64,000 nt of DNA from an uncultured Gammaproteobacteria bacterium (lineage in GTDB: Bacteria; Patescibacteriota; Microgenomatia; Levybacterales; GWA1-39-11), in the NCBI GenBank assembly GCA_964394645.1, contig CAYMYC010000001.1, forward strand, positions 479,359 through 543,358. The letters are read 5' to 3'. Of the stretch, positions 26,152 through 60,927 are shown piece after piece. The translations under genes were made by a program, and so were the position numbers. The stretch's first letter is position 1. Each line of letters begins with the position of its first letter. The notes below the pieces were generated by a model. It searched no databases, was not told where the DNA came from, and saw nothing but the letters and a program-made list of their open reading frames with translations.

Positions 26152-26972
26152 AAAAAGCAGGGCATTTCTTTTTTTTACTTACGGGAGTAGTATTTTTTAC
26201 AATTCTACTGCTGCAATATTATTTATTTCCCTCTCAACCTGAAAATGTAACAAAAGAAAGTAATTCTAAAGTCGCTGGTATAAATACTGAAAATAGTAAA
26301 AGTACTCCTACCCCAAGTCTAATAAAACTTGCTAAAGAAGAGTACGTCATTGCGGCATTTGGAGATTCTATGATAGACACTATGGGTGAGAAAATGGAAT
26401 TCCTGCAGCGGGTACTTAAAAAAGAATACCCAGGCATTACGTTCAGGCTGTATAACTATGGTATTGGTGCTCAAAACGTGGAACAAGGGCTTGCTCGGTG
26501 GAATTCATCATTTAAAAATAGGGAAAGAAGTTTTCCTCCCATTTCAAGTCTTTCCCCTGATGTGATTCTTTTGGGGTCATATGCTTATAACCCTTTTAAT
26601 CCTCATGATTTGCAAAAATATAGGAATAGGCTTTCTGATTTAGTAAAAAAAGCTAAAGAAACAAAGGCTAAAGTGTATCTTTTGGCAGAAATTGCCCCGT
26701 TATATGATGGTTTTGGAGATGGTCCTAAAGGACCAAATATGTCAACTGCGTCTGCACACATGCAGGCAAATAATATACGAGAGCAGTTAGAACAAGTTGA
26801 GACAGTAGCAAAGAAACAAAAAATTGTGGTAATTGATATGTTTTCAAGAACGCAGTTTAATGGAAAATATGGGAATAGGTATTATACGAACCCTGATGAC
26901 GGAGTACATCCTTCAGATTATGGTCAAGAGGCTACTGCCGAGCAGATAGTGAAAACTGTAAAATTTGATTAA
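26148..26972 (+). CDS. SGNH/GDSL hydrolase family protein
   Basis: 274 aa. N-terminal TM or signal, then block I IAAFGDSMID with the catalytic Ser in GDS. The C-terminal DxxH-like region is DDGVHPSDYG. Confidence 0.75.
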   Translation: MKKAGHFFFLLTGVVFFTILLLQYYLFPSQPENVTKESNSKVAGINTENSKSTPTPSLIKLAKEEYVIAAFGDSMIDTMGEKMEFLQRVLKKEYPGITFRLYNYGIGAQNVEQGLARWNSSFKNRERSFPPISSLSPDVILLGSYAYNPFNPHDLQKYRNRLSDLVKKAKETKAKVYLLAEIAPLYDGFGDGPKGPNMSTASAHMQANNIREQLEQVETVAKKQKIVVIDMFSRTQFNGKYGNRYYTNPDDGVHPSDYGQEATAEQIVKTVKFD

Positions 26973-28947: not shown

Positions 28948-29397
28948 GTGATGAATAACTTTACCTCCCAGCTCCATGATGAGAACACGTTTTACAAAGC
29001 CTTTTTGAGGGATATAGATAGGGCTACAAGCGAAATTATTATCGAAAGCCCATTCATTACCTCAAGTCGAATGAATCTGCTATGGTTAACGCTCAAGTGT
29101 GCCTATTCCAGAGGAGTTAAGATATACATTATTACCCGCGATCCAAAAGATCATAGCGATGGATATGAAATCCAGTCTGAGGATGAAATACGACGTTTGG
29201 AAGAGTTAGGTATCCAAGTTTTCTTGTGTACAGGCAACCATCACCGAAAGTTGGCCATTATCGATCGTGAGATACTCTGGGAAGGCAGTTTAAATATATT
29301 GTCGCAAACTAAAAGCAGAGAAATAATGAGAAGAATGGAAGGTATAGATTTTGCTGTTGAAATGTTTAATTTTATAAAGCTCTACAAATACATATAA
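28948..29397 (+). CDS. Single-HKD phospholipase D-like protein (Nuc-endonuclease-like)
   Basis: 149 aa with one HKD motif HHRKLAIIDREILWEGSLNILS (HxK-x4-D-x6-GSxN). The length matches dimeric Nuc-type PLD nucleases. Confidence 0.7.
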   Translation: MMNNFTSQLHDENTFYKAFLRDIDRATSEIIIESPFITSSRMNLLWLTLKCAYSRGVKIYIITRDPKDHSDGYEIQSEDEIRRLEELGIQVFLCTGNHHRKLAIIDREILWEGSLNILSQTKSREIMRRMEGIDFAVEMFNFIKLYKYI

Positions 29398-39012: not shown

Positions 39013-39444
39013 ATGTTTGGTAAAAAGAAAAAACAAGTAGTCAAAAAGAAAAATTCTTCCACAAAGAGATTAACTTGGCATTCTGACACTAAGTTAACAG
39101 AAAGGGTAAGAGGTGTAATTACAGAGATTGGTTTTTTACATGTTCAAAAACAGAGAATATTTTGTTTTAGGACTGAAGGTTCAAAATCTAGGGCATACGC
39201 AAGAATTTGGGCATTTCCTAAAATTTTTCAGAACGTGCTTGAGATAGAGCCTGCGTATGTCATAGAGGTAATAAACAAATATTACGACAAATTAAGTTAT
39301 GAGGAGCAAACAAAAGTGTTAATTCATGAGCTTTTACATATTCCTAAAAATTTTTCAGGGAGCCTACTTCCCCACAAACATAGTGGAAAAACAATTGAAA
39401 AGGAAGTAGAACGAATTTATAAGAGCATGGAGAAAAAAGCATGA
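39013..39444 (+). CDS. Putative zinc metallopeptidase-like protein (HEXXH)
   Basis: 143 aa. Basic N-terminus, then HELLH within LIHELLHIPKNFSG...HKH. Overlaps the next gene by 4 nt (ATGA). Confidence 0.35.
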   Translation: MFGKKKKQVVKKKNSSTKRLTWHSDTKLTERVRGVITEIGFLHVQKQRIFCFRTEGSKSRAYARIWAFPKIFQNVLEIEPAYVIEVINKYYDKLSYEEQTKVLIHELLHIPKNFSGSLLPHKHSGKTIEKEVERIYKSMEKKA

Positions 39445-42434: not shown

Positions 42435-42488
42435 TTACATTTGATCTTTTTACTTGACACAGTCATTTTAATACACCACAATAAATAT

Positions 42489-44762
42489 ATGGTTTCCTCT
42501 CACGATTTGGTAGTTTCATTGTCAGACTGTAATTCACATGATGTAAAATTTGTGGGTGGTAAGGCAGCCAATTTAGGAGAAATGATAAATGCTTCGTTTC
42601 CTGTTCCTGGCGGCTTTGTAGTTTCCTCAAACGCATATTTCCTTTTTCTTTCAGAAAATAAACTTGATATAAAGATTAAACATCTATTGGGATCAATTAA
42701 CTTTGAGAGCACAGACTCTCTTTCTCAAGTTTCACATCATATTAAACAGATAATTTTATCATCACCAATTCCTGAAAAAATAGTAAAGGAAGTTTTTTCA
42801 CATTATAAAAAAATAGGTACACAAACGCTTGTTGCAGTTAGATCATCTGCAACATCTGAGGATTCAAAGAAAGCATCTTTTGCAGGACAGCAAGAGACTT
42901 TTCTAAATGTTTCAGGAGAGGCACTACTTATGGATAAAATTCGTGAAGGGTGGGCATCTCTTTTTTCAGCAAGAGCTATGTTTTACAGACATGATGTGCA
43001 TTTGGATCACTTTAAGACAGGGATTGCTTTAGTTGTGCAAAAAATGGTTCAGTCGACTGCAAGCGGAGTTATGTTTTCTATTGATCCTGTAACAAACAAC
43101 AAAAACAAAATAATAATAGAGTCAATTTACGGTCTTGGTGAGTATATTGTGCAAGGTAAGGTTACTCCGGATCATTATGAAGTTGCAAAAAGCGACTTTT
43201 TAATACTTGAAAAAAAAATTGTAAATCAAAAAATAATGTATGTTAAGAAAGGACATGACAATAAAGAAGAACAAGTACCCAAAAAGCTGCAGGACTTGCA
43301 GAAAATAACGGATGAGGATATAGTTACTCTTGCGAAATTAAGTAAAAAACTTGAAGATCATTACTTTTTTCCTCAGGATTCGGAGTGGGCAAAAGAAAAC
43401 GGGAAGATATATCTGGTACAAACACGACCTATAACAACGACTGTAGAAGTGAAAAAAGAAAGTCAGACACCCCAAGCCCTTACGTCTTCTATTGGAAGTC
43501 ATCCTATAATTGTGGGAGATCCAGCAAGTCCTGGGATTGGAATTGGCAAGGTAAAAATTATTCATTCGCTTTCCGACGCATCATCTTTTGAGGCAGGAAT
43601 GGTTTTAGTGGCGAAAGCTACTAATCCTGACTATGTACCTATTATGAAAAAAGCTGCTGCTATTGTTACTGCAGAAGGCGGGAGAACTTCACATGCTGCC
43701 ATAGTCTCAAGAGAATATGGTCTTCCCGCTGTCGTAGGAGCGCATTTTGCACTTACTAAATTGAAAGACGGTATGAGTGTCACAGTTAATGGTAGAACAG
43801 GCGAGGTGTTTCAGGGTAGTCTAAAGATTAAAGAAGAAGTAGTGTCGGAAGAAACTCATGTTAAAACGGCAACAAAGTTATATGTCAATGTAGGAGAGCC
43901 TGAACTTGCTGAAAAGATAGCAGCAATGCATGTAGATGGAGTAGGACTGTTGAGAGCAGAATTTATGATAGCTCAAATCGGTATCCACCCAAAAAAATTA
44001 ATAGAAGATGGTAAGGAAAACCTTTTTATAGAAAGGTTGAGTCAGGACCTTATGACATTCTGTAAGGCATTTTACCCTCGCCCTGTTCTTTACAGAGCAA
44101 CTGATTTTAAAACAAATGAGTATAGGAATTTAAAGGGCGGAAAACCGTATGAGCCCGAAGAATCAAACCCTATGTTGGGGTATAGAGGTGTATACAGGTA
44201 CATAAATGACCCACGCGTTTTCAAATTAGAACTTGAGGCTATAAAACGTGTTAGGGAAAAAATGGGATTTGTTAACTTACGGCTTATGCTTCCTTTTGTA
44301 CGTACCGTAGCAGAGCTTGAATCAGTAAAAAAAATTATTTATGACGCTGGGTTAAAACGGTCTCACACATTTAAGTTATTTATGATGGTAGAAATTCCTG
44401 CAAACGTAATTCTAATTGATGATTTTATAGATTCGGGGATTGATGGTGTTTCAATAGGCTCAAATGATCTAACTATGTTAACTCTTGGTGTAGATCGTGA
44501 CAATGATGAGGTTGCAACGGAATTTGATGAACGTAACAAGGCATTACTGTGGTCGTATGAGAGGGTACTAAAGGCAGCACGTGAACACGGAATTGAAGTA
44601 GGTATTTGTGGTCAAGCACCATCAGAGTTTCCCGATCTTGTTGAGAAGTTAGTTCATTGGGGAGTAAATAGTATTTCTGTTTCTCCTGATGCGGTTATAG
44701 AAACACGCAGGACAATTCACGCGTCTGAGTTAAAACTTCTAAAACGTTTGAAAGGGCAATAA
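42489..44762 (+). CDS. ppsA: Phosphoenolpyruvate synthase / pyruvate, water dikinase
   Basis: ATP-grasp N-terminus, phosphohistidine domain GGRTSHAAIVSREYGLPAVVG and a C-terminal PEP-utilising TIM barrel. The start is set at ATG 42489 (MVSSHDL...) because TTGACA at 42454-42459 lies inside the longer ORF that begins at 42441. Confidence 0.9.
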   Translation: MVSSHDLVVSLSDCNSHDVKFVGGKAANLGEMINASFPVPGGFVVSSNAYFLFLSENKLDIKIKHLLGSINFESTDSLSQVSHHIKQIILSSPIPEKIVKEVFSHYKKIGTQTLVAVRSSATSEDSKKASFAGQQETFLNVSGEALLMDKIREGWASLFSARAMFYRHDVHLDHFKTGIALVVQKMVQSTASGVMFSIDPVTNNKNKIIIESIYGLGEYIVQGKVTPDHYEVAKSDFLILEKKIVNQKIMYVKKGHDNKEEQVPKKLQDLQKITDEDIVTLAKLSKKLEDHYFFPQDSEWAKENGKIYLVQTRPITTTVEVKKESQTPQALTSSIGSHPIIVGDPASPGIGIGKVKIIHSLSDASSFEAGMVLVAKATNPDYVPIMKKAAAIVTAEGGRTSHAAIVSREYGLPAVVGAHFALTKLKDGMSVTVNGRTGEVFQGSLKIKEEVVSEETHVKTATKLYVNVGEPELAEKIAAMHVDGVGLLRAEFMIAQIGIHPKKLIEDGKENLFIERLSQDLMTFCKAFYPRPVLYRATDFKTNEYRNLKGGKPYEPEESNPMLGYRGVYRYINDPRVFKLELEAIKRVREKMGFVNLRLMLPFVRTVAELESVKKIIYDAGLKRSHTFKLFMMVEIPANVILIDDFIDSGIDGVSIGSNDLTMLTLGVDRDNDEVATEFDERNKALLWSYERVLKAAREHGIEVGICGQAPSEFPDLVEKLVHWGVNSISVSPDAVIETRRTIHASELKLLKRLKGQ

Positions 44763-46258: not shown

Positions 46259-46903
46259 TTAGTTAAATCTTCTGATAAGACCCACAACCTTACCTTGTAC
46301 ACGTACAGCTTTTGGATAGATAGGTTCCATGGTGCTATTTGCCGGTTTCAAAATAACTTGTTCACCTTCTTTATAGAATCGTTTTAATGTAGCTAGACTT
46401 TCATCAACTAAGGCAACAACAATATCTCCATTATGAGCAGTTTCAGATTTTTCAATAACCACAAAGTCTCCATCTAAAATTCCGTCTTCTATCATGGATG
46501 TGCCTTTAACTTGGAGAACATAAGAAGTTTTTGTACCTGAAAGCATACTGGAGGCAACCGCAAATGTTGCTTCAGGATCAGTATATGGCTCTAGCGGTTG
46601 ACCTGCAGCAATATAACCCATCAAAGGAAGGGAAATGGACGGACCAAGTGATTTTGAGGTAGGTCCTAGAAGTTTTCCTAGTGACTCTTTTTTTAACACT
46701 TTAAGAGTTCTCAGGTTTCCATCAACTTTTTGGACATAGCCTTTGTCTACCATGGTTCTTATCAAGGCATGAACGGTAGATACGCTTCTTTTTCCAGTAG
46801 CCTGAGCCATTTCTGCCAAAGTAGGGGAGTAGCCATTTTGTTCTTGGAATTGAATAATAAAATTAAGTAACTCCCTCTCTTTTTTATATAATACCGCTGT
46901 CAT
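46259..46903 (-). CDS. lexA: LexA repressor
   Basis: 214 aa. N-terminal winged-helix domain (LTKRERELLNFI-like ...GYSPTLAEMAQATG). C-terminal S24 peptidase domain with Ser in GTSMIEDGI and Lys in the RFYKEGEQVILKP region. Confidence 0.9.
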   Translation of the reverse strand: MTAVLYKKERELLNFIIQFQEQNGYSPTLAEMAQATGKRSVSTVHALIRTMVDKGYVQKVDGNLRTLKVLKKESLGKLLGPTSKSLGPSISLPLMGYIAAGQPLEPYTDPEATFAVASSMLSGTKTSYVLQVKGTSMIEDGILDGDFVVIEKSETAHNGDIVVALVDESLATLKRFYKEGEQVILKPANSTMEPIYPKAVRVQGKVVGLIRRFN

Positions 46904-46983
46904 ACATAATTTATACGAAAATTACTTGAATTTTACAAGATGACAAACAATATCAAAACACCGCATTTTTAGTTTTCAGACGA

Positions 46984-47002: not shown

Positions 47003-47024
47003 GAATATGGTAAAATTATAGGTT

Positions 47025-49001
47025 ATGAACTTTAAACTTCATTCAAAATTTAAACCCACTGGAGATCAACCCACTGCGATTGAAAAACTTTCAACAGGAT
47101 TAAATAAGGGGGAAGAAAATCAAGTATTATTGGGAGTTACAGGTAGCGGAAAAACATTTACTATTGCAAACGTAATACAAAAATATAATAAGCCAACACT
47201 TATTATTTCACACAATAAAACACTTGCAGCGCAAATATACCAGGAAATGCGGGACTTTTTTCCGGAAAACGCAGTTTCATATTTTGTTTCTTATTACGAT
47301 TTCTATCAGCCAGAAGCATACATTCCGACAACTGATACCTATATCGCAAAGGAAACAGAAATAAACGAAGAAATAGATAAGCTGAGACTTGCTGCTACCA
47401 CAAATATATTAACCAGACCTGATACGATTGTGGTCGCATCTGTATCATGTATATATAATCTCGGATCTCCTCAAGAATATGGAAAATTTGTTTTTACTTT
47501 AAAAACAGGAGATGAGTATGAGAGGCAACACATTTTGGAAAGACTACTTGATCTGATGTATGAACGAAATGATTATAATTTTACCCGTGGCACATTTCGG
47601 GTTCGAGGAGAGGTTATAGAGTTGCATCCTGCGTACGATGACTATGTGGTAAGAATTGTTTTAAAAGGAAAAAAAATTGATAAACTGGAAATACTAGACC
47701 CGTTAACATCTGAGAAGAAAGGGGTAAAGGAAGAAATTTCTATTTTTCCTGCAAAACACTATATAACCGATCCTGCATTTTATAAAGATGTATTTACACA
47801 AATTAGACGTGATTTAAAAATAAGGACTGATGAATTAAAGACGCAGGGAAAAGAGTTGGAGGCACATAGATTAAATCAACGCACGGAATATGATCTTAAA
47901 ATGTTGACCCAGCTAGGATACGTAAACGGAATTGAAAATTATTCACGCTATTTTGATGGAAGAAAACCAGGAGACGCACCATTCTCACTTCTTGAATACT
48001 TTGAAAAATCTGATCCGGATTGGCTTCTTATTGTTGATGAGTCCCATATGACAATACCCCAAATTCGTGGTATGTATAACGGAGACAGGGCGCGTAAACA
48101 AATGTTGGTAGATTTTGGATTTAGACTTCCTTCAGCATTTGACAACAGACCCCTAACTTTTGAGGAGTTTTACGGTAAGGTACATAAGACAATCTATATG
48201 AGTGCGACTCCTTCTTTGTGGGAAGTGAAAAAATCAGGTGATAAAAACATTGCAGAACAGTTAATCAGACCTACTGGTGTTGTGGATCCAGAAGTAACTA
48301 TTAAAAAAAGTGATGGTCAAATCTTTGATCTACTCTCTGAGATTAAAGCTGCTATTGAAAAAAAAGGTAGAGTGCTCGTTACAACTCTAACAAAGCGTAT
48401 GGCAGAAGAGTTGTCTTCTTATCTTGAAGATGAAGGAATAGCTGTAACATATCTTCATGCAGATATTCAAACACTGGAACGTCAAGACGTATTAGACGAG
48501 CTAAGAGAGGGTAAATACGATGTGTTGGTGGGAATTAATCTACTGCGGGAGGGACTAGATCTTCCAGAGGTTTCACTTGTCGCTATTCTCGATGCTGACA
48601 AAGAAGGTTTTTTAAGGTCAAGATCTTCGCTTATTCAGATTATGGGGAGAGCAGCAAGAAAAGTTGATTCCCGTGTTATTTTATACGCTGATATTATGAC
48701 AGACTCAATTAAAAAAGCAGTAGCTGAGGTTGAGAGAAGGCGTAAAATTCAACTTGCGTATAATAAAAAGTATAATATTACTGCTAGATCCGTAGAAAAG
48801 TCCATTCGTGAAAAGCTAATTAAAAAAGAGGAAATTCTAGATGATATTAGACCTCTTATGGATAGAGAGATGTTACTTCCTGATCAAAAAAAGAAGGTAA
48901 TTAAAAGATTACGAGATGAAATGAAGAATGCAGTAAAAAATTTGGATTTTGAAACAGCTGCTTTGCTACGAGATAAGATAAAGTATTTAGAGCAGCAGTA
49001 G
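47025..49001 (+). CDS. uvrB: Excinuclease ABC subunit B
   Basis: 658 aa. Walker A GVTGSGKTFT, a beta-hairpin region, helicase motifs and the C-terminal UvrC-interaction coiled coil (FETAALLRDKIKYLE). Confidence 0.95.
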   Translation: MNFKLHSKFKPTGDQPTAIEKLSTGLNKGEENQVLLGVTGSGKTFTIANVIQKYNKPTLIISHNKTLAAQIYQEMRDFFPENAVSYFVSYYDFYQPEAYIPTTDTYIAKETEINEEIDKLRLAATTNILTRPDTIVVASVSCIYNLGSPQEYGKFVFTLKTGDEYERQHILERLLDLMYERNDYNFTRGTFRVRGEVIELHPAYDDYVVRIVLKGKKIDKLEILDPLTSEKKGVKEEISIFPAKHYITDPAFYKDVFTQIRRDLKIRTDELKTQGKELEAHRLNQRTEYDLKMLTQLGYVNGIENYSRYFDGRKPGDAPFSLLEYFEKSDPDWLLIVDESHMTIPQIRGMYNGDRARKQMLVDFGFRLPSAFDNRPLTFEEFYGKVHKTIYMSATPSLWEVKKSGDKNIAEQLIRPTGVVDPEVTIKKSDGQIFDLLSEIKAAIEKKGRVLVTTLTKRMAEELSSYLEDEGIAVTYLHADIQTLERQDVLDELREGKYDVLVGINLLREGLDLPEVSLVAILDADKEGFLRSRSSLIQIMGRAARKVDSRVILYADIMTDSIKKAVAEVERRRKIQLAYNKKYNITARSVEKSIREKLIKKEEILDDIRPLMDREMLLPDQKKKVIKRLRDEMKNAVKNLDFETAALLRDKIKYLEQQ

Positions 49002-49007
49002 ATAATT

Positions 49008-50003
49008 ATGGCAAAATCTCCAGAACTACCACACATATTCCCTAAAGAAGGGCTAATGGAGAAAAGAGCAAATGTTTTAACAAGAATTACGCCTTTTGTT
49101 GAAGAGAAACTAACCTTACTTCTTGACCCGAATAAAGCATGGCAACCCTCTTTGGTTTTACCTAGTCCTGAATCATTAGAATTCAAACAAATTCAACTGG
49201 AAGCAAAAATGCTTACTCCTGAGACAAAAGTTGTAATAGTTGGATCTTTAATCACTGAAGATGGGCTTCCAAATTTTACTGCAGAAATATCAAGGTTTGG
49301 AGAATCCTTTGGGATAGACGAGAAAGAAGACTCCCCATGGGAAAAATGGAGAAGAGGATGGGCTTCTGAAGAGGATAGACATGGAAGACTAATTGAAATG
49401 TATGTTAGAGACTCAGGAGGATTTAATGTTACACAAATTGAAAGAGACGTTCATGCATATATAAGAGATGGTTTTTATCCAGGGCATGGAAAAGACTCAT
49501 ATCAAGCTCTTATGTATACTGCCTGGCAGGAAAGGGCAACACAGGATTCTCATAGGGGACTAGCAAAAGTAGCAAAAACTGCAGGGGCAGAATACCTATA
49601 TAAAGCAGCAGGCAGAATGGCTGGTGACGAGGGGAGACATGCACAGTTTTATATTCCAGTCGTTGGTGAAATATTTAGATTAGATCCTGAAGGCGCAACT
49701 CACTCACTTTCTGAACTAGTTGCAAGAGGTCTTATTATGCCTGGGAGTAAAATGTCTGGGTTCAATGCGTTTGTTGAGGCAAGTTCAGTATCGGGAGTAT
49801 ACGGCGGGATTGAATATACCTCAATTCTTCAAGAACTGATACAGACATGGGGAGTTAAATCAATTTCACTAAGTGGTCAGGCTGATCAAAAAAGGCACGC
49901 TCTGATAGATAGAGCAGATAGGCTAACAAAAATTGCAGAAAGAGCCCGACCTAGAAACAACAGCAATTCTCTTGAAGCTCTCAAGCAGAGGTGGATCACC
50001 TAG
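49008..50003 (+). CDS. Diiron acyl-ACP desaturase family protein (stearoyl-ACP desaturase/DesA-like)
   Basis: 331 aa with two diiron ligand motifs EEDRHG and DEGRHAQFY, corresponding to the EENRHG / DEKRHE pair of soluble acyl-ACP desaturases. The start is 7 nt after the uvrB stop. Confidence 0.7.
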   Translation: MAKSPELPHIFPKEGLMEKRANVLTRITPFVEEKLTLLLDPNKAWQPSLVLPSPESLEFKQIQLEAKMLTPETKVVIVGSLITEDGLPNFTAEISRFGESFGIDEKEDSPWEKWRRGWASEEDRHGRLIEMYVRDSGGFNVTQIERDVHAYIRDGFYPGHGKDSYQALMYTAWQERATQDSHRGLAKVAKTAGAEYLYKAAGRMAGDEGRHAQFYIPVVGEIFRLDPEGATHSLSELVARGLIMPGSKMSGFNAFVEASSVSGVYGGIEYTSILQELIQTWGVKSISLSGQADQKRHALIDRADRLTKIAERARPRNNSNSLEALKQRWIT

Positions 50004-50101
50004 TCTACTTACTTGAATAAGCTCCTCCAGTTAGTCTATAATGATTAACTTCAAATTTCATTTAGAATCAATTTCGTAAGAAGTTTGTTTAATCTAAAAA
50101 T

Positions 50102-52975
50102 ATGTACGACAAAATAATAGTAAAAGGCGCGCGCGAGCACAATCTAAAGAATATTGATCTTGAGATTCCCAAAAACAAATTAGTGGTTTTTACAGGATTA
50201 TCAGGTAGTGGAAAAAGTTCCCTTGCTTTTGACACAATTTATGCAGAAGGTCAAAGGAGGTATGTAGAGTCGTTGTCAAGCTATGCAAGGCAATTTTTGG
50301 GAATAATGAAAAAGCCTGATGTCGATTTTATCGAAGGTCTTTCACCTGCAATATCAATAGATCAAAAATCGACCTCACACAATCCCCGCTCAACAGTTGG
50401 CACTGTTACTGAAATCTATGACTATTTACGCCTTTTATTCGCACGCGTAGGTCATCCTCATTGTCCAAAATGCGGTACTGAGATATCACGCACCACAAAA
50501 GAAAAAATACTTGAAGACGTAATATTAAAATTTGTAGGAATGCAGCCTGCTCGGATAATGGTACTTTCTCCTGTTGTGAAAGGAAGAAAAGGTGAATATA
50601 ACGATTTGTTTAAGGATTTGAGAAAACGCGGATATCAAAAAGTAAGAGTAGACGGAAAAATATTAGATTTATCTGAAGATATTGGGCTTATTAAAGCAAA
50701 TAAACATACCATTGACGCAGTAGTAGATAGAATTACCTTGGACAAAAATTTTGATCGCCAAAGATTGTCTGACTCTTTAGAGCAGGCGCTTGTGCTTGGG
50801 AATAGAGAGGTAATAATTACAAAAGTTAAAGATAAGGGATTTGAATTTCCAGAAAAACCAGTAGAAATGGAAGATCTTGCCTATTCAGAAAAATTTGCAT
50901 GTCCCAAATGCGGTACCTCAATATCTGAAATAGAGCCTAGAATTTTTTCTTTTAATTCACCATTTGGGGCATGTACAAATTGTAATGGGTTAGGCGTAAT
51001 TTACGCAATTGATGAGTCACTTGTATTGGCACCAGAATTAACTGTACTTGAAGGAGGAATACTTTCATTCTCAAATATTGGGGAGCAAGATACATGGTTT
51101 GCAAGAACTGTAAAGCAGGCATTATCAGAGAATGATATTCCGTTAAATAAACCAATAAAATCATTTACCTTGGAGCAGAAGAAACAATTACTGTATGGTA
51201 CGGGAGATACAATGTACCAAATAACAGGAACTAATAGATTTGGAGAAAAAACAAAAATTTACGAAGAGTTTACGGGAATAGTAAATTATATGCTTTCAAA
51301 ATACAATGAATCGGATTCTGAAATAGTAAAACGTGAAATTGAAAAGTTTATGAACCCGAAAGTATGTGAGGAGTGTAACGGTGCAAGGCTAAAAAAGGAA
51401 GCACTTGCAGTAACTATTCAAGGGAAGTCAATCGTTGAGATTACAGAAAAAAGTATAGAAGACACGCACGAATTTATTCTTCAGTTAGATTCTGTTTTGA
51501 GCGAACGCGAGAAGCAGATCGCAAAGGTGATTGTCAAAGAAATAAGTGCACGGCTAGCATTTCTTTTAGATGTTGGATTATCCTACCTTACGCTCTCAAG
51601 GAGTGCACATACGCTCGCAGGCGGTGAAGCTCAAAGAATTAGGCTTGCGTCTCAAATAGGAAGTGGGCTCTCAGGTGTTTTATATGTTCTAGATGAGCCA
51701 TCTATTGGGCTGCATCCTAGGGATAATACAAAACTCATAACAACTCTTAAAAGGCTAAAAGAAATAGGTAATACTGTTATAGTTGTAGAGCATGATAAGG
51801 AAATGATGGAAGAGTCAGACTACATTTTTGATATCGGTCCTGGGGCAGGACAGCTAGGGGGACATATTACTGCACAGGGTACACCGCTTGAACTGATGGA
51901 AAATGAGAAGTCGTTAACAGGACAGTATTTATCAGGCAAAAAGAAAATAAAAATTCATAAGAGTAAAAAAGAAGACAAAAATGAGAAAATAATTATTTCG
52001 GGCGTTACTGAGCACAATTTGCAAAATGTAACTGTGGAATTTCCTTTAGGGAAGTTGATATGCGTTACGGGAGTTTCAGGATCTGGAAAATCTACGTTAA
52101 TAAATGATGTCTTGTACCACGCACTAGCACAAAGAAAAAACCCTTATCACAAAGAACGACCAGGTGTATTCAGAGACTTAATGGGTGAGGAATACATAAA
52201 AAGAGTTTTTATGATTGATCAATCTCCAATCGGTCGTACACCACGGAGTAATCCTGCCACATATACAGGTGCCTTCACGCATATCCGGGGTATCTTTGTA
52301 AATAGCAAGGAAGCAAGAATAAGAGGTTACACACCTGGAAGATTTTCATTTAATGTAAAGGGTGGTAGATGTGAAACGTGTGAGGGTGAAGGAACGCTAA
52401 AGATTGAAATGCAGTTTCTCCCTGACGTTTTCATCCCGTGCGAAACATGTAATGGAAAAAGGTATACACAGGAAACGCTTGAGATAGAGTTTGAAGGAAA
52501 AAACATAGCAGACGTTTTAGACATGTCCATAAATGAAGCTTTAGATTTCTTTTCTTTTCATGAAGGATTATCCACAAAATTATTAACACTGAAAGAAGTG
52601 GGGTTATCCTATGTTAAGCTAGGACAATCAGCACCCACTTTGTCAGGAGGAGAAGCGCAGAGAATAAAACTTGCATCCGAACTTTCAAAAAAAGGTGGGA
52701 ATAATAGTCTGTACTTACTAGATGAGCCGACAACAGGACTTCATTTTGCTGATTTAGAAAAGCTTGCTGTAGTATTGCACAAATTAGTTGAAAAAGGAAA
52801 CACAGTGATTGTAATTGAGCATAATCTTGATATTATTAAAAATGCAGATTATATTATTGATCTGGGACCAGAAGGCGGAAAAGGGGGAGGAGCTATTGTT
52901 GCTGTAGGATCTCCACATGAAATTGCGTCAAATCCTCACTCCTATACTGGTCAATACCTGAAAAAGGAATTGTGA
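50102..52975 (+). CDS. uvrA: Excinuclease ABC subunit A
   Basis: 957 aa. Two ABC modules (GLSGSGKSSLAF / GVSGSGKSTLI; signatures LSGGEAQRI twice) and zinc-finger CxxC pairs. Confidence 0.95.
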   Translation: MYDKIIVKGAREHNLKNIDLEIPKNKLVVFTGLSGSGKSSLAFDTIYAEGQRRYVESLSSYARQFLGIMKKPDVDFIEGLSPAISIDQKSTSHNPRSTVGTVTEIYDYLRLLFARVGHPHCPKCGTEISRTTKEKILEDVILKFVGMQPARIMVLSPVVKGRKGEYNDLFKDLRKRGYQKVRVDGKILDLSEDIGLIKANKHTIDAVVDRITLDKNFDRQRLSDSLEQALVLGNREVIITKVKDKGFEFPEKPVEMEDLAYSEKFACPKCGTSISEIEPRIFSFNSPFGACTNCNGLGVIYAIDESLVLAPELTVLEGGILSFSNIGEQDTWFARTVKQALSENDIPLNKPIKSFTLEQKKQLLYGTGDTMYQITGTNRFGEKTKIYEEFTGIVNYMLSKYNESDSEIVKREIEKFMNPKVCEECNGARLKKEALAVTIQGKSIVEITEKSIEDTHEFILQLDSVLSEREKQIAKVIVKEISARLAFLLDVGLSYLTLSRSAHTLAGGEAQRIRLASQIGSGLSGVLYVLDEPSIGLHPRDNTKLITTLKRLKEIGNTVIVVEHDKEMMEESDYIFDIGPGAGQLGGHITAQGTPLELMENEKSLTGQYLSGKKKIKIHKSKKEDKNEKIIISGVTEHNLQNVTVEFPLGKLICVTGVSGSGKSTLINDVLYHALAQRKNPYHKERPGVFRDLMGEEYIKRVFMIDQSPIGRTPRSNPATYTGAFTHIRGIFVNSKEARIRGYTPGRFSFNVKGGRCETCEGEGTLKIEMQFLPDVFIPCETCNGKRYTQETLEIEFEGKNIADVLDMSINEALDFFSFHEGLSTKLLTLKEVGLSYVKLGQSAPTLSGGEAQRIKLASELSKKGGNNSLYLLDEPTTGLHFADLEKLAVVLHKLVEKGNTVIVIEHNLDIIKNADYIIDLGPEGGKGGGAIVAVGSPHEIASNPHSYTGQYLKKEL

Positions 52976-54819
52976 CTATAAAGATTATTAAAATATTTCT
53001 TATTTTCATTTTTTTGATTGTACTGCCTGTTTTTCCAAGTTATGCACAGGAGAAGGAAGACTCAAAAGATTACTTTACTGTTTCAGCTAATTCTTTATAC
53101 CAAGTTGTAAACTCCTCATCTACGCATGTTATTCAAGAAATCTCAATAGTAAACAAGAAAGAGTTTTTTTATGCTCCATCATACGCAATAACACTTCATA
53201 CGAAATCAATAAGTAACATTACTGCACGCAATGAGGCAGGTGCTATTCCCTTTACGCTAAAAGAAGGTGAAGACGGATCAAAAACAATAGAAATCACGTT
53301 TCCGGAAAAAATTGTTGGAGTTGGTAAATATAATAATTTCACCTTCTCCTATGACTCTTCAGACTTTACACATAAAATTGGGAACATACTAACCGTTCAA
53401 ATTCCTGCGCTTTCGGGTTCTCAATCTTTCGACTCATATACGGCAGCAGTAAATGTTCCAGAAGAGTTCGGAGTACCAAGCATCATAAAGCCAAATGTTT
53501 CATATAGTAAAAAGGGGAATACGTATATATTTAGCAACGGACAATTGAAAAAAGGAATAGAAATGGTATTTGGTGAATTTCAACTATACAGATTTAAACT
53601 TTCTTATCACTTAGAAAACAATAACGTATTCCCTGTTACAACTGAACTTGCCTTGCCTCCAAACACATCTTATCAGGAGGTAATTGTGGAAAATGTAACA
53701 CCAAAACCTAAGAAAACGTACAGAGATATAGATAAAAATACGCTTGCAACATATTTACTACCGCCAAAAACTACAACCCATGTTACCGCAGAGGTTTTAA
53801 TTAAAGTAAAAAATATACCAACACAAGAAGTTTTGTCAGAATCACAAAAAAAAATATATTTAAAACCCCAAAAATACTGGGAAGTTAATGATCCGGAGAT
53901 ACAAAAAATTGCAAAAGACTTAAAAACTCCTTTAGCAATATATGAGTATGTTGTAAAAACGCTGTCGTATGAAACAAAAAAAGCAAATTTAGAAAACGTG
54001 AGACAAGGAGCAAAAAACACACTCTCAAACCCTTTATACGCAGTTTGCCTTGAATTTACTGACCTTTTTATAAGTCTTGCGCGAGCAGCTCAAATTCCCG
54101 CAAGATCTGTAGAGGGTTATGCCTATACTGATGACTCACAAGATAAACCTTTATCATTGTTTGAGGATGTTCTGCATGCTTGGCCAGAATATTACGATGA
54201 AAATAAAAAAACATGGGTTATGGTAGACCCCACTTGGGGGAATACAACAGGAGGAGTAGACTACTTTAACTCACTCGATTTTGATCATGTTGCGTTCGTC
54301 ATAAACGGGGAAAAGAGTTCATATCCGGTTCCTGCAGGAGGGTATAAAACAGAAGAAGAAACAAAAGATATTGTCGTATCATATCCTGATTCAGTTGCAT
54401 TTGTTAAAAATTCAAAGATTCAAATATCAGGTTCTTTCTCCTCTTTTACAAAGAGTAATTTAATAGAGAGTAAAATAAAACTTATAAATTTAGGTAATTC
54501 TGAATCTAGTCTTCAAAAAGCAGAAATTTATCTTGATGGAAAAAAATCACTTGCCATATCGCTCCCTGAGGTTCCTCCATACGGAGAAGCTGAATTTTCA
54601 ATTGCTATACCTTTGCGCCATACAGGATTTCTTTCTTCTTTGACAAATTTTAATCATACTATTACAATTCATGATGAGAACGGACGGGAGCTATATGCTG
54701 AAAAAATTAAAACATTCCCGTTTTCTCAATACTATTTGATAGGAGGTGCAATTTTTATTGGAATCATATTTATATTCGTCCTTGCCTTCAAAACCAGGAG
54801 TTTACCTCTTCAAAAATAA
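52972..54819 (+). CDS. Transglutaminase-like cysteine protease superfamily protein, extracytoplasmic, with a C-terminal TM anchor
   Basis: 615 aa. Signal peptide or TM at the N-terminus. Core Cys in AVCLEFTDLFISLARAAQIPARSVEGYAY, His in LHAWPEYY, Asp in VMVDPTWG. C-terminal TM helix. Overlaps the uvrA stop by 4 nt and the uvrC start. Confidence 0.8.
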   Translation: MTIKIIKIFLIFIFLIVLPVFPSYAQEKEDSKDYFTVSANSLYQVVNSSSTHVIQEISIVNKKEFFYAPSYAITLHTKSISNITARNEAGAIPFTLKEGEDGSKTIEITFPEKIVGVGKYNNFTFSYDSSDFTHKIGNILTVQIPALSGSQSFDSYTAAVNVPEEFGVPSIIKPNVSYSKKGNTYIFSNGQLKKGIEMVFGEFQLYRFKLSYHLENNNVFPVTTELALPPNTSYQEVIVENVTPKPKKTYRDIDKNTLATYLLPPKTTTHVTAEVLIKVKNIPTQEVLSESQKKIYLKPQKYWEVNDPEIQKIAKDLKTPLAIYEYVVKTLSYETKKANLENVRQGAKNTLSNPLYAVCLEFTDLFISLARAAQIPARSVEGYAYTDDSQDKPLSLFEDVLHAWPEYYDENKKTWVMVDPTWGNTTGGVDYFNSLDFDHVAFVINGEKSSYPVPAGGYKTEEETKDIVVSYPDSVAFVKNSKIQISGSFSSFTKSNLIESKIKLINLGNSESSLQKAEIYLDGKKSLAISLPEVPPYGEAEFSIAIPLRHTGFLSSLTNFNHTITIHDENGRELYAEKIKTFPFSQYYLIGGAIFIGIIFIFVLAFKTRSLPLQK

Positions 54820-56044
54820 CGAAAAAAAGATAATTTATATTGGTAAAGCAAAGAATCTTAAAAAAAGAGTTTCATCCTATTTTCAAAAAGGCGCTCATGA
54901 CGCAAAAACTACACATTTAGTAAGCGCTATTAAATCAATAGAGCACACACCAGTAAGCTCTGAAATAGAAGCATTTTTACTGGAAGCAGAGCTTATTAAA
55001 AAGTATAAGCCTTATTATAATATCCGTTTTACTGATGATAAATCTTACCCATATATTATGATTACAACCAATAGTTTTCCTTATGTATCAGTGGTGCGTA
55101 AGATGAATAACAAGAAGGCAGATTATTTCGGTCCATACCCTGATGCAGGATCAGTAAAAACTGTACTTAAAATTTTAAGAAGAATATTTCCTTATCAGTC
55201 GGTTAAAAATCACTCAAAAAGAAAATGCCTGTATTATCATCTGGGACTTTGTCCTTGCCTTCCTGCAGCCCCTGAAAATAGAATCCAATACATGAAAAAT
55301 TTGAGGCTTTTAAAAAGCTTTTTAGGAGGAAAAACGGGTAAGGTTACTGAAGCACTTAGAAAAGAACAAAAACGCAGTATTCAACATGAGGAATTTGAAA
55401 ACGCTTCAAGTATTCAAAAGCAGCTTGACTCAATAAAAAAGATTACTCAAGAGACATTTGATCCATTTTTCTACATATCTACCCCAAATGCGCAAGCCAA
55501 ACGTGAAAAGAATGAAAATGAGAATCTAAAAACTTTGCTTACCAGCTCTGGGCTAGAATTAACCGCTCTTAACAGAATAGAGTGTTATGACATATCAAAT
55601 TTTCAAGGAACAAATGCTACCGGTTCTATGACAGTATTTGTTGATGGAAGCGCTACAACAAGCGAATATAGAAAGTTTAAAATTAAAAAGCTTTCAACAC
55701 CAAATGATTTTGCAATGCATCAAGAAGTAATGGCAAGACGCCTAAAACATACGGAGTGGGGAATGCCTGACCTTATTATAGTAGATGGTGGAAAAGGACA
55801 AGTGAGCTCTGTTTTACAAGTTCTTGCTCATATGAATGTTAATTTCCCTGTCATTGGTCTTGCAAAACGGTTTGAAACTATTATTCTACCTGAAAAAGCT
55901 GGAAAGCAGATTATCTTTAATGAGGTAAGAGTTCCTTTATCAACTCCTGCGCTAAATTTGGTGCGGCGAATACGAGACGAAGCACATCGTTTTGCAATTT
56001 CATATCACAGAACGTTAAGAAGTAAAAAAACATTTACAGATTAG
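54758..56044 (+). CDS. uvrC: Excinuclease ABC subunit C (short form lacking the C-terminal HhH region)
   Basis: GIY-YIG domain PGVYLFKNNEKKIIYIGKAKNLKKRVSSYF...EAELIKKYKPYYNIRF, a UvrB-interacting region and an RNase-H-like endonuclease domain (LIIVDGGKGQ). The ORF in the track starts at GTG 54746. An AGGAGG Shine-Dalgarno at 54741-54746 favours a TTG start at 54758. Confidence 0.85.
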   Translation: MESYLYSSLPSKPGVYLFKNNEKKIIYIGKAKNLKKRVSSYFQKGAHDAKTTHLVSAIKSIEHTPVSSEIEAFLLEAELIKKYKPYYNIRFTDDKSYPYIMITTNSFPYVSVVRKMNNKKADYFGPYPDAGSVKTVLKILRRIFPYQSVKNHSKRKCLYYHLGLCPCLPAAPENRIQYMKNLRLLKSFLGGKTGKVTEALRKEQKRSIQHEEFENASSIQKQLDSIKKITQETFDPFFYISTPNAQAKREKNENENLKTLLTSSGLELTALNRIECYDISNFQGTNATGSMTVFVDGSATTSEYRKFKIKKLSTPNDFAMHQEVMARRLKHTEWGMPDLIIVDGGKGQVSSVLQVLAHMNVNFPVIGLAKRFETIILPEKAGKQIIFNEVRVPLSTPALNLVRRIRDEAHRFAISYHRTLRSKKTFTD

Positions 56045-59685: not shown

Positions 59686-60927
59686 TTAGACAGAAGAACG
59701 AAGATGAGGAAGATAAAAAGCCTTATCCCCAAGAAATCCATTTGGTTTGGTTGAAAGTTTTGGGGCATATAAAACGTATCCGTAACGTATAGTGTGAGAA
59801 CCAAATTGTTTATTTAAATTATCTATTGTGTGGTTTAAAACTTCTTCCCGTGGATCCTCAAATAAACTCGGAGTCACATATTTTTCATCAATTAGATTAG
59901 CTACAGAAACATGAACTTGTCTTACCATATAATGCCACCCCCATTCTTTATAGAAAAGCTTTAAAACTTCAAAAATTTCTTTACCTGAGTTAATGTAGGT
60001 AAAAATTGTTTTTCTCCCTCCCATACTTTTCTCCCCGCTTAGGTATAAGCTTACTGTACGAGCTTTTTTATTCATAGCTCTTAGCCTTTTTGCTACCTCT
60101 TCAGATAATTCTGATAATATTTGAAGAATTTTTTCCTGACTCTCTTCATTTGCAGGCAAACAATAATTTCTCCCTACTGATTTAGCATCTACTTCCTCAA
60201 AAAGAGAAGTAACCTCAGAGTCGTCTTGAGCCCATGCGTAACATAGGAGTTGCTCAGCGCACACTATACCAAATTCTTTCCTGAGAAGACGTAGGGGATA
60301 AGTTCTTAAAGATAATAGATTATAAATTCCTAATATGTTAAGACGGTATTTTAGTCTATCTCCAATACCGCATATATCTGTAAGTTTAGTATTTTTATAT
60401 ACAGAATCTATATTATTGCGGTCTATTAACATGAGTCCATCTGGTTTATTTAAGCCAGAGGCAAGCTTTGCTAAAAGTTTATTATAAGAAATACCAATAG
60501 AAACTGTTGTAACAGGACTAATTTCTAAAGCTAGACGCTTTTTAAAAAGCTCTGAAAAAGAAACAACATCTTTTGCGTAAAGATGTAATGTTGCGGTCAT
60601 ATCTATGAATACTTCATCCAAAGAAAATACTTCTACATAAGGAGAGTATGAGGATGCTATCTCTATAAATTTTTTTGTTATATCTAAATATCTATCAAAG
60701 TCCCCTTTAACATATTGTATGGTAGGGCATAGTGTATCCGCCTCCCATGTTCTGGTTCCTGTTTTTATTCCAAATTTTTTAGCTTCTTTACTGGCAGCCA
60801 CAATACATGTTCTTCCATTTGCAGCAGTAACACCGATTGGTTTACCGCGTAAATTAGGATTAAAATGCTGCTCACATGAAGCAAAGAATGAATCAAAATC
60901 TATATGAAGAATGGTTTTATCTATCAT
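59686..60927 (-). CDS. dinB: Y-family DNA polymerase IV
   Basis: 413 aa. LHIDFDSFFASCEQ with catalytic Asp/Glu, SLDEVFID, and palm, finger and little-finger regions. Ends GFLGDKAFYLPHL. Confidence 0.9.
   Translation of the reverse strand: MIDKTILHIDFDSFFASCEQHFNPNLRGKPIGVTAANGRTCIVAASKEAKKFGIKTGTRTWEADTLCPTIQYVKGDFDRYLDITKKFIEIASSYSPYVEVFSLDEVFIDMTATLHLYAKDVVSFSELFKKRLALEISPVTTVSIGISYNKLLAKLASGLNKPDGLMLIDRNNIDSVYKNTKLTDICGIGDRLKYRLNILGIYNLLSLRTYPLRLLRKEFGIVCAEQLLCYAWAQDDSEVTSLFEEVDAKSVGRNYCLPANEESQEKILQILSELSEEVAKRLRAMNKKARTVSLYLSGEKSMGGRKTIFTYINSGKEIFEVLKLFYKEWGWHYMVRQVHVSVANLIDEKYVTPSLFEDPREEVLNHTIDNLNKQFGSHTIRYGYVLYAPKLSTKPNGFLGDKAFYLPHLRSSV

What the first reader, a model, noticed from the sequence alone, without database searches (positions are those of the whole stretch)
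49008..50003. Soluble diiron acyl-ACP desaturase-like protein inside the uvr operon
The protein has the paired ExxRH diiron motifs (EEDRHG ... DEGRHAQFY) of the plant/actinobacterial stearoyl-ACP desaturase family. If this is a reduced-genome bacterium, as the gene content hints, a fatty-acid desaturase would be unexpected, and its position between uvrB and uvrA even more so. The same ferritin-like diiron fold also supports other oxidase or oxygenase chemistry. A role tied to DNA damage or oxidative stress, or an unrelated substrate, cannot be excluded.
Basis: partly seen in the sequence, partly recalled or inferred. Interest (0 to 1): 0.55.

Follow-up and report, generated by a model that had tools for sequence, protein, structure and literature searches.

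The report
Accessory lipid desaturase gene between uvrB and uvrA
A tiny, host-dependent (CPR, Levybacteria) bacterium carries an intact plant-type soluble fatty-acid desaturase gene, but it sits between the DNA-repair genes uvrB and uvrA only because a two-gene cassette landed there in a narrow lineage, not because it has a role in repair.

Summary
ORF 49008-50003 (+, 331 aa) is a full-length member of PF03405, the soluble acyl-ACP desaturase family (E 1e-76). All six diiron ligands and the second-shell residues are intact, and the AlphaFold model matches castor stearoyl-ACP desaturase (TM 0.83). The gene is under purifying selection (dN/dS about 0.1).

The organism is a Candidatus Levyibacteriota (CPR/Patescibacteria) bacterium. 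The proposed link to DNA repair is not supported:
- In 27 related CPR loci uvrB abuts uvrA directly, within a conserved uvrB-uvrA-transglutaminase-like-uvrC block.
- Only a narrow subclade (UvrB at least 79% identical) carries an insert there. The ancestral insert was the desaturase gene plus a PIG-L/LmbE de-N-acetylase gene.
- The window's lineage lost PIG-L, another lineage lost the desaturase gene, and the sister lineage carries an unrelated small ORF.
- uvrA has its own conserved promoter. In relatives the desaturase gene has its own promoter-like element, and its allele has recombined independently of the flanks.

The nearest out-of-clade relatives sit beside cyclopropane-fatty-acid-synthase-family genes, which points to acyl-chain chemistry. 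The most likely role is O2-dependent desaturation of scavenged acyl chains. The carrier, chain length and regiospecificity cannot be read from the sequence. This is a new member of a known family in an unusual host, of modest interest.

The parts
49008..50003 (+). Soluble diiron acyl-ACP-desaturase-family gene (331 aa)
   Evidence: ORF. PF03405 E=1.1e-76, full length. PDB sequence hits to plant acyl-ACP desaturases at 1e-44. AF2 model pLDDT 84, pTM 0.84. Foldseek TM 0.83 to castor 1afr/2xz1. dN/dS about 0.1.
49257..49259 (+). Codon of E84, diiron ligand (castor E105)
   Evidence: Mapped through the HMMER alignment to 1oq4; invariant in 8 homologues.
49368..49385 (+). EEDRHG motif: ligands E122 and H125 (castor E143, H146)
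49530..49532 (+). Codon of E175, diiron ligand (castor E196); T178 (castor T199) lies three residues on
49626..49652 (+). DEGRHAQFY motif: ligands E208 and H211 (castor E229, H232) and D207 (castor D228)
47025..49001 (+). uvrB, upstream neighbour; probably co-transcribed with the desaturase gene in this genome (6-nt gap, no terminator)
   Evidence: Pfam UvrB_inter, UvrB, UVR. Gap sequence. No terminator-like site on the + strand between the two genes.
47008..47016 (+). Extended -10-like element TGGTAAAAT, 8 nt before the uvrB ATG (probable uvrB promoter, short or no leader)
   Evidence: Conserved in window, L007, L009, L011 and L012 while the surrounding spacer is not. Its function is inferred.
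50013..50042 (+). Promoter-like TTGAAT-18-TATAAT in the desaturase-uvrA spacer: a separate uvrA promoter
   Evidence: 10 of 12 match. Conserved in window, L007 and L012. Its function is inferred.
50102..52975 (+). uvrA, downstream neighbour
   Evidence: Pfam UvrA_inter, UvrA_DNA-bind, ABC_tran.
46259..46903 (-). lexA, transcribed divergently from uvrB
   Evidence: Pfam LexA_DNA_bind plus Peptidase_S24. Found next to uvrB only in the cassette-bearing subclade.
52972..54819 (+). Transglutaminase-core membrane protein between uvrA and uvrC (part of the ancestral block, not of the insert)
   Evidence: Pfam Transglut_core. Present between uvrA and uvrC in about 15 distant CPR loci.
54746..56044 (+). 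uvrC
   Evidence: Pfam GIY-YIG and UvrC_RNaseH_dom.

Best explanation
The gene encodes a catalytically intact soluble diiron oxygenase of the acyl-ACP desaturase family (PF03405) in a Levybacteria (CPR) bacterium. It most likely uses O2 and two electrons from a small redox protein to put a cis double bond into a saturated, medium- to long-chain acyl group threaded into its buried channel. The host group is reported to lack de novo fatty-acid synthesis, so the acyl chains are probably scavenged. In that case the enzyme lets the cell adjust membrane unsaturation itself in oxic habitats.

Its place between uvrB and uvrA is a historical accident. A two-gene cassette (the desaturase gene plus a PIG-L/LmbE de-N-acetylase gene, with its own promoter) was inserted into an ancestral uvrB-uvrA junction in one narrow subclade. 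The window's lineage later lost PIG-L and closed the gap to 6 nt, so the gene is now probably read through from the uvrB promoter.

Shown: family, ligands, fold, purifying selection, the insertion and loss history, and the separate uvrA promoter-like site. Inferred: desaturase chemistry, lipid substrate, physiological role and co-transcription.
For: Family and active site:
- PF03405 at 258 bits, full length.
- Six ligands E84/E122/H125/E175/E208/H211, plus the equivalents of castor W62, W139, T199 and D228, are invariant in all homologues.
- AF2 pLDDT 84; TM 0.83 to castor stearoyl-ACP desaturase, against 0.58 for DesA2 and about 0.45 for R2lox.

Functional gene:
- dN/dS is 0.10 at an unsaturated dS of 0.24.
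- The identical protein was found on 23 contigs from many samples.

Lipid context:
- The sister proteins P0011 and P0013 each sit beside a divergently transcribed CMAS-family (PF02353) gene. That family's characterised members modify double bonds of acyl chains.
- The window encodes a PLD-like enzyme and a GDSL lipase but no ACP or fab genes.
- CPR are reported to lack fatty-acid synthesis and to take lipids from other cells (PMC9938205, PMC12455944, PMC7242380).

Accidental position:
- 27 related loci have uvrB abutting uvrA with no insert.
- Insert states are desaturase plus PIG-L (L009, L010, L011, L015), desaturase only (window, L007, L012), PIG-L only (L040), and an unrelated 77-aa ORF (L018).
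- The UvrB tree gives a single gain (100% bootstrap) followed by losses.
- Relatives carry an extended -10-like element in front of the desaturase gene, and uvrA has a conserved promoter-like site.
- The desaturase allele is a recombination island: 91-94% against 75-86% nucleotide identity between L007 and L012.
Against: - No biochemical data exist for any member of this clade.
- Residues that set specificity in plant enzymes differ. The pocket-bottom positions (castor M114, T117, L118, T181, G188, F189) are E93, R96, F97, H160, A167 and L168. The phosphopantetheine-contact and regioselectivity residue D280 is Val. Surface K262 is Gly (PMC9335243, PMC8456182). The substrate could therefore be shorter, polar-ended, or carried by something other than ACP.
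- No ACP, acyl-ACP synthetase or ferredoxin gene is in the window, and the rest of the genome could not be inspected.
- The ancestral pairing with a GlcNAc de-N-acetylase-family gene is unexplained by a simple membrane-fluidity role.
- The 6-nt spacing after uvrB does place the gene under the uvrB promoter, next to lexA. Damage-linked expression is therefore not excluded.
Confidence: 0.6

Rival explanations
1. The enzyme is a diiron oxidase or hydroxylase acting on a non-standard substrate rather than a classical acyl-ACP desaturase. One candidate is the acyl or alkyl part of a GlcNAc/GlcN-bearing glycolipid or envelope precursor that the ancestral PIG-L partner de-N-acetylates.
For: - The desaturase and PIG-L genes are adjacent in four divergent loci (down to about 40% desaturase identity), with overlapping or 4-nt-spaced stop and start codons in L009, L010 and L015.
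- The pocket-bottom and ACP-proximal residues differ from all characterised plant enzymes, with charged E93 and R96 at pocket positions.
- The PIG-L protein is generic: below the BshB/MshB equivalog cut-offs, with the nearest structure a diacetylchitobiose deacetylase.
- No ACP gene is in the window.
Against: - The two genes are separable. The window, L007 and L012 keep the desaturase gene without PIG-L, under purifying selection, and L040 keeps PIG-L without it.
- T178 (castor T199) and the whole desaturase-type ligand sphere are retained.
- No PF03405 member with natural non-desaturase chemistry is known to me; this is my own knowledge and was not tested here.
- The sister lineages pair the enzyme with CMAS, an acyl-chain enzyme.
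Confidence: 0.2
2. One reading: the protein has a role tied to DNA damage or oxidative stress. It would be expressed with uvrB as part of the LexA/SOS regulon, for example consuming O2 or repairing oxidised lipids during stress.
For: - The gap after uvrB is 6 nt with no terminator, and lexA is divergent immediately upstream.
- The uvrB, desaturase, uvrA order is kept down to about 40% protein identity.
Against: - The gene is absent from the same junction in 27 related loci and in L018 and L040.
- The junction holds varied cargo.
- In L009, L010 and L011 the gene lies 40-48 nt from uvrB behind its own -10-like element.
- No canonical LexA box is in the lexA-uvrB spacer, and the only shared motif is not enriched: 5 found against 2.7 expected.
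- The allele recombines independently of the flanks.
- It evolves several-fold faster than UvrA and UvrB.
Confidence: 0.07
3. It is a non-functional hitch-hiker: a remnant of a decaying cassette that is on its way out, as PIG-L already is.
For: The cassette is being lost piecemeal (PIG-L lost here, the desaturase gene lost in L040). The gene is very rare: only one close relative (81% identical) among the 185,579 GTDB species genomes.
Against: - The reading frame is intact and all catalytic residues are invariant.
- dN/dS is 0.07-0.10.
- The identical protein was recovered on 23 contigs from many independent samples.
- The allele was recently transferred between lineages and retained.
Confidence: 0.03

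Closest known systems
Plant plastid soluble acyl-ACP desaturases (castor delta-9 18:0-ACP desaturase, PDB 1AFR/1OQ4/2XZ1; Thunbergia delta-6 desaturases 7PP7/7T63; ivy delta-4 desaturase 2UW1)
   Same: Same Pfam family over the full length. About 29-30% structure-based identity, TM 0.83. Identical six-residue diiron site and second shell (the equivalents of castor T199, W139, D228 and W62). Similar length, with no extra domains.
   Different: - The host is a CPR bacterium with no fab or ACP genes in view.
- The pocket-bottom pair is Ala-Leu, against Gly-Phe in 18:0 enzymes and Ala-Tyr in a 16:0 enzyme.
- E93, R96, F97 and H160 replace castor M114, T117, L118 and T181.
- The regioselectivity residue D280 (Lys in ivy) is Val, and K262 is Gly.
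- The lysines I recall as the ferredoxin-binding site (castor K56 and K230; own knowledge, not checked) are not conserved (PMC9335243, PMC8456182).
- It forms a separate clade in the NJ tree.
Mycobacterium tuberculosis DesA2 (and DesA1), actinobacterial soluble desaturase-like proteins (PDB 1ZA0)
   Same: A bacterial member of the same superfamily and fold.
   Different: Only a marginal sequence match (E=5e-4; TM 0.58, 17% identity). The protein here is clearly plant-type rather than DesA2-type.
Uncultured-organism relatives P0011 and P0013, each paired with a CMAS (cyclopropane/mycolic-acid synthase family) gene
   Same: They are the nearest out-of-clade relatives (37-38% identical), come from low-GC contigs (0.37-0.38), and share the same ligands.
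   Different: Their neighbour is a divergently transcribed CMAS methyltransferase, not uvr genes or PIG-L. Their host taxonomy is unknown.
R2-like ligand-binding oxidases and class I ribonucleotide reductase R2 (ferritin-like diiron proteins; R2 is a DNA-metabolism enzyme)
   Same: The ferritin-like four-helix diiron core.
   Different: Weak structural match only (TM about 0.2-0.5, E 1e-4 to 1e-2) and no Pfam match, so the protein is not an R2 or R2lox.

Membership tests
Soluble acyl-ACP desaturase family (Pfam PF03405, FA_desaturase_2) | Full-length profile match above the curated threshold | tested here: met
   258.2 bits against a cut-off of 22.7; profile positions 2-324 of 325.
Soluble acyl-ACP desaturase family (Pfam PF03405, FA_desaturase_2) | Six diiron ligands in two E...ExxH pairs (castor E105, E143, H146, E196, E229, H232) | tested here: met
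   E84, E122, H125, E175, E208 and H211; invariant in all 8 aligned homologues.
Soluble acyl-ACP desaturase family (Pfam PF03405, FA_desaturase_2) | Desaturase-type second shell (castor W62, W139, T199, D228) | tested here: met
   W45, W118, T178 and D207 are conserved across the clade.
Soluble acyl-ACP desaturase family (Pfam PF03405, FA_desaturase_2) | Helical-bundle fold of the castor enzyme | tested here: met
   AF2 pLDDT 84, pTM 0.84. Foldseek top 19 hits are all plant acyl-ACP desaturases, TM 0.78-0.83.
Soluble acyl-ACP desaturase family (Pfam PF03405, FA_desaturase_2) | Acyl-ACP is the substrate (ACP docking and phosphopantetheine contact) | tested here: inconclusive
   Castor D280 is V256 here and K262 is G241. 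The basic residues at castor R336, R340 and R344 are kept as K308, R312 and R316; that these contact ACP is my recollection, not checked (PMC8456182, PMC9335243). No ACP gene is in the window, and the genome could not be checked.
Soluble acyl-ACP desaturase family (Pfam PF03405, FA_desaturase_2) | O2- and ferredoxin-dependent introduction of a cis double bond | not testable with these tools
   This needs an enzyme assay. No ferredoxin gene was seen in the window.
Nucleotide-excision-repair (uvrABC) gene set or functional partner | Association with uvr genes conserved across lineages that have the uvrB-uvrA cluster | tested here: not met
   27 loci with UvrB 52-59% identical have uvrB abutting uvrA with no insert. 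L018 and L040 also lack the gene.
LexA/SOS regulon | A LexA operator upstream of the transcription unit | tested here: inconclusive
   No CGAAC-N4-GTTCG match (up to 2 mismatches) and no CTGT-N8-ACAG in the lexA-uvrB spacer. The candidate ATACGAAA is not enriched.
Anti-phage defence or phage cargo at a variable junction | Match to a known defence or phage protein family | tested here: not met
   PADLOC gave no hits for the desaturase, PIG-L, the L011 ORF, the transglutaminase-like protein or the L018 ORF. PHROGs gave none for the desaturase. No relative was found in viral contigs.

The most novel reading that the evidence does not exclude
A CPR bacterium that cannot make fatty acids uses a plant-type soluble desaturase to desaturate acyl chains scavenged from its host or surroundings. 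The carrier might be something other than canonical ACP, and the enzyme may originally have worked with a GlcNAc de-N-acetylase on a glycolipid. This would be the first lipid-tailoring capability found in the Patescibacteria. In the window's lineage the gene has become wired to the uvrB/lexA promoter region, so membrane remodelling might be co-expressed with the damage response.
Probability: 0.25. Interest if true: 0.6.

Novelty: new member of a known kind. Interest (0 to 1): 0.35.

Why it matters
CPR/Patescibacteria are thought to obtain membrane lipids from other cells because they lack fatty-acid synthesis. How, or whether, they tailor those lipids is unknown. An intact, selected, O2-dependent soluble desaturase in a Levybacteria lineage would be a concrete and testable handle on post-acquisition lipid remodelling and on adaptation of CPR to oxic habitats. 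So would the related desaturase-CMAS pairs in the sister contigs, although their hosts are not known to be CPR.

The finding does not reveal a new repair function. It mainly shows that gene order in these streamlined genomes can put unrelated cargo inside apparent operons.

Tried and rejected
1. LexA operator. Gram-positive and E. coli-type boxes are absent from the lexA-uvrB spacer. ATACGAAA is shared by the lexA and Y-family polymerase upstream regions but is not enriched. The inverted-repeat search was uninformative. The Patescibacteria LexA paper is not held. SOS control remains undetermined.
2. PIG-L remnant or ACP in the window. tblastn found nothing better than E about 1.6.
3. NCBIfam gave no model for the desaturase. 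The PIG-L partner falls below all equivalog cut-offs.
4. Phage or defence origin of the cassette: no viral contigs, PHROGs or PADLOC hits for the desaturase.
6. Literature. No paper combines acyl-ACP desaturase with Patescibacteria. The hits for CPR plus desaturase are unrelated.
7. Reading chain length and regiospecificity from plant determinants. The residues match no characterised class, so no prediction is made.
8. Whole-genome check for ACP, fab and ferredoxin genes was not possible.
9. The taxonomy of the CMAS-linked sister contigs (L016, L017) could not be established.

Full report
**1. Observation**

The window contains an ATG-to-TAG ORF at 49008-50003 on the + strand (331 aa). It lies 6 nt after the uvrB stop (47025-49001) and 98 nt before uvrA (50102-52975). 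lexA lies divergently upstream (46259-46903, minus strand). A transglutaminase-core membrane protein (52972-54819) separates uvrA from uvrC (54746-56044). The quoted motifs EEDRHG (residues 121-126) and DEGRHAQFY (residues 207-215) are present.

**2. What the protein is**

- Pfam gives a single, full-length match to PF03405 FA_desaturase_2 (E=1.1e-76, 258 bits, profile 2-324 of 325). NCBIfam has no model for it.
- Against PDB sequences, the best matches are plant acyl-ACP desaturases (7pp7 at 1.4e-44; castor 1afr and 1oq4 at 4e-40). M. tuberculosis DesA2 is marginal at 5e-4.
- An AlphaFold2 model built on 8 homologues is confident (pLDDT 84, pTM 0.84). Its top 19 Foldseek hits in the PDB are all plant acyl-ACP desaturases (TM 0.78-0.83). 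DesA2 scores TM 0.58, and R2lox and RNR-R2 score about 0.2-0.5.
- Mapping through the HMMER alignment to castor numbering gives the six diiron ligands: E84, E122, H125, E175, E208 and H211 correspond to castor E105, E143, H146, E196, E229 and H232. The equivalents of castor W62, W139, T199 and D228 are W45, W118, T178 and D207. All are invariant in every homologue aligned.
- The catalytic machinery of a desaturase-type diiron enzyme is therefore intact. The hypothesis of a different ferritin-like family is rejected.

**3. What cannot be read from the sequence**

Residues that set specificity in plant enzymes differ here.
- The pocket-bottom pair is Gly-Phe in all 18:0 enzymes and Ala-Tyr in the T. 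alata 16:0 enzyme (PMC9335243). Here it is Ala167-Leu168.
- Castor M114, T117, L118 and T181 are E93, R96, F97 and H160.
- Castor D280 contacts the phosphopantetheine and switches regioselectivity when changed to Lys (PMC8456182). Here it is Val256.
- Surface K262 (K257 in T. laurifolia, PMC9335243) is Gly241.
- I therefore make no prediction of chain length, double-bond position or carrier.

**4. Organism**

- The window has 36% GC and typical CPR gene content.
- A scan of 185,579 GTDB species genomes found one close relative. It is an 81% identical protein in the same gene order, on a Candidatus Levyibacteriota MAG of the Patescibacteria, Microgenomates group.
- The exhaustive HMMER search found 766 clusters (50% identity) at E up to 1e-3, and 74 at E up to 1e-30, among 1.84 billion representatives. 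Only a handful belong to this clade.
- The word-index search found relatives at 82, 58, 57 and 46% identity, plus fragments.

**5. Genomic context and history**

This is the decisive part.
- The exact protein occurs on 23 contigs from many samples, always in the same context.
- Relatives down to about 40% identity keep the order uvrB, desaturase, uvrA. The more divergent ones (L009, L010, L011, L015) carry a PIG-L/LmbE-family de-N-acetylase gene directly after the desaturase gene, with stop and start overlapping or 4 nt apart in L009, L010 and L015. L011 also has an unannotatable 446-aa ORF there.
- I fetched 49 metagenome loci encoding UvrB relatives and mapped the window's proteins onto them. 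In 27 loci with UvrB 52-59% identical, uvrB abuts uvrA (HSP gaps 2-187 nt). These sit within a conserved block of TP-methylase, VTT/DedA, uvrB, uvrA, transglutaminase-like and uvrC. None of them has the desaturase or PIG-L gene.
- Only the subclade with UvrB at least 79% identical carries an insert. It comes in three states: desaturase plus PIG-L, desaturase only (window, L007, L012), and PIG-L only (L040).
- The sister locus L018 (UvrB 70% identical) has a 446-nt gap holding an unrelated 77-aa ORF.
- A UvrB NJ tree supports the cassette-bearing clade at 100% bootstrap. The lineages with both genes are basal, and the desaturase-only trio (100%) and the PIG-L-only locus are nested. This means one gain and then two independent losses.
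- No PIG-L remnant is left in the window.

**6. Transcription units**

- A conserved extended -10-like element (TGGTAAAAT, 47008-47016) lies 8 nt before the uvrB ATG.
- In L009, L010 and L011 the spacer between uvrB and the desaturase gene is 40-48 nt and carries its own extended -10-like element (TGTGGTATAGT, TATGGTATAGT, TGTTAGAAT). In the window, L007 and L012 the spacer is only 6-9 nt.
- The spacer between the desaturase gene and uvrA carries TTGAAT-18-TATAAT (50013-50042), conserved in window, L007 and L012. No terminator-like site follows uvrB or the desaturase gene on the + strand.
- The 'uvr operon' is therefore at least two units. In this genome the desaturase gene is probably read through from uvrB (inferred). 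Ancestrally it was an independent unit.

**7. Is it functional?**

- For L007 against L012, dN/dS is 0.10 at dS=0.24. For the window against L007 or L012 it is 0.07-0.09, with dS near saturation. It is not a pseudogene.
- It evolves about as fast as the transglutaminase-like protein, and several times faster than UvrA and UvrB.
- A sliding-window comparison shows L007 and L012 are 91-94% identical exactly over the desaturase gene, against 75-86% in the flanks. The window dips to 73-81% over the same stretch. The allele has therefore been exchanged by recombination independently of its neighbours.

**8. Clues to substrate**

- In an NJ tree of the best hits, the uvr-linked proteins form one clade. 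Their sisters P0011 and P0013 each sit beside a divergently transcribed CMAS-family (PF02353) methyltransferase gene. That family's characterised members act on double bonds of lipid acyl chains. This supports acyl-chain chemistry for this branch of the family.
- The window itself has no ACP, fab or ferredoxin gene. It does encode a two-HKD PLD-like enzyme (19256-20353) and a GDSL lipase/acylhydrolase with an N-terminal hydrophobic segment (26148-26972).
- Published work states that Patescibacteria lack fatty-acid synthesis and probably recycle lipids from other cells (PMC9938205, PMC12455944, PMC7242380). One study reports acpP among genes horizontally transferred into Patescibacteria (PMC12455944).
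- I found no paper that mentions a soluble acyl-ACP desaturase in Patescibacteria.

**9. DNA-damage link**

- No Gram-positive-type or E. coli-type LexA box occurs in the lexA-uvrB spacer.
- An 8-mer shared with the Y-family polymerase upstream region is not enriched, with 5 found against 2.7 expected.
- The relevant Patescibacteria LexA paper is not held, so SOS control is undetermined.
- The distribution data in section 5 argue strongly against a repair function.
- Phage or defence origin was also tested and not supported.

**10. Verdict**

The implied functional tie to the uvr genes is not.
- The most likely function (confidence about 0.6) is O2-dependent desaturation of scavenged acyl chains by an accessory enzyme. 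It arrived in a two-gene cassette and now rides on the uvrB transcript.
- A different substrate, possibly linked to the lost PIG-L partner, is the main rival (about 0.2).
- This is a new member of a known family in an unusual host. It is of modest interest, mainly as a testable lead on lipid tailoring in CPR bacteria.

Noticed in passing
window 52972-54819 (+); also L019-L058: A 615-aa transglutaminase-core protein with N- and C-terminal hydrophobic segments sits between uvrA and uvrC, and its ORF ends overlap both genes. Unlike the desaturase gene, it is kept at that place in about 15 distant CPR loci (UvrB 52-58% identical). It is therefore the truly conserved non-repair gene of this uvr cluster. 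It has no NCBIfam or PADLOC match.
   Followed up: partly
L009 10993-11673; L010 2762-3436; L011 10128-10802; L015 1975-2646; L040 1441-2094: A PIG-L/LmbE-family de-N-acetylase gene (64-80% identical between loci) is the ancestral partner of the desaturase gene. It is absent from the window without a remnant, and it is kept alone in L040. Its subtype is unknown: it falls below the BshB/MshB cut-offs, and the nearest structure is a diacetylchitobiose deacetylase.
   Followed up: partly
window about 48900-50100, compared with L007 and L012: This is a recombination island. L007 and L012 are 91-94% identical in nucleotides exactly over the desaturase gene but 75-86% identical in uvrB, uvrA and beyond. 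The window's allele is more divergent than its flanks.
   Followed up: yes
L016 64-2450; L017 6723-9083: The nearest out-of-clade desaturase relatives (37-38% identical; contig GC 0.37-0.38) are each paired divergently with a CMAS-family (cyclopropane/mycolic-acid synthase) gene. This is a possible desaturase plus cyclopropane-synthase lipid-tailoring pair in unidentified organisms.
   Followed up: partly
window 46904-46950 and 47008-47024: The lexA-proximal 45 nt (ACATAATTTATACGAAAATTACTTGAATTTTACAAGATGACAAAC...) are conserved even where the rest of the spacer is not. They may hold the lexA promoter and an unrecognised LexA operator. uvrB has an extended -10 only 8 nt before its ATG, suggesting a leaderless or very short-leader mRNA. 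lexA is adjacent to uvrB only in the cassette-bearing subclade.
   Followed up: partly
L011 10799-12139 (-); L018 3601-3834 (-): There is other cargo at the same uvrB-uvrA junction. L011 has a 446-aa ORF with no Pfam, NCBIfam or PADLOC match, and L018 has a 77-aa ORF with no match. The junction appears to be a small variable spot in these genomes.
   Followed up: partly
window 19256-20353 (+), 26148-26972 (+), 28948-29397 (+): The window encodes lipid-handling genes in a genome with no visible lipid synthesis. They are a two-HKD PLD-like protein, a GDSL lipase/acylhydrolase with an N-terminal hydrophobic segment, and a small single-HKD PLDc_2 protein (which may be a nuclease).
   Followed up: no
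window 39013-39444 (+): A 'putative phage metallopeptidase' (PF18894) gene is conserved in synteny upstream of the PGM/PMM gene in the window, L003, L004 and L007. It looks like a resident gene rather than prophage cargo.
   Followed up: no
window 8333-9055 (-), 16369-18153 (-), 59686-60927 (-): The window also holds a GGDEF diguanylate cyclase between dnaE and gatB, a PolX-PHP polymerase, and a Y-family (IMS) polymerase. Together with lexA and uvrABC this is a fairly rich DNA-damage toolkit for a CPR genome.
   Followed up: no
window 42441-44762 (+): The longest ORF of the PEP-utilising enzyme (PPDK_N, PEP-utilizers) starts at a TTG and gives 773 aa. Gene calls on identical contigs use a later start and give 757 aa, so the annotated start is uncertain.
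   Followed up: no
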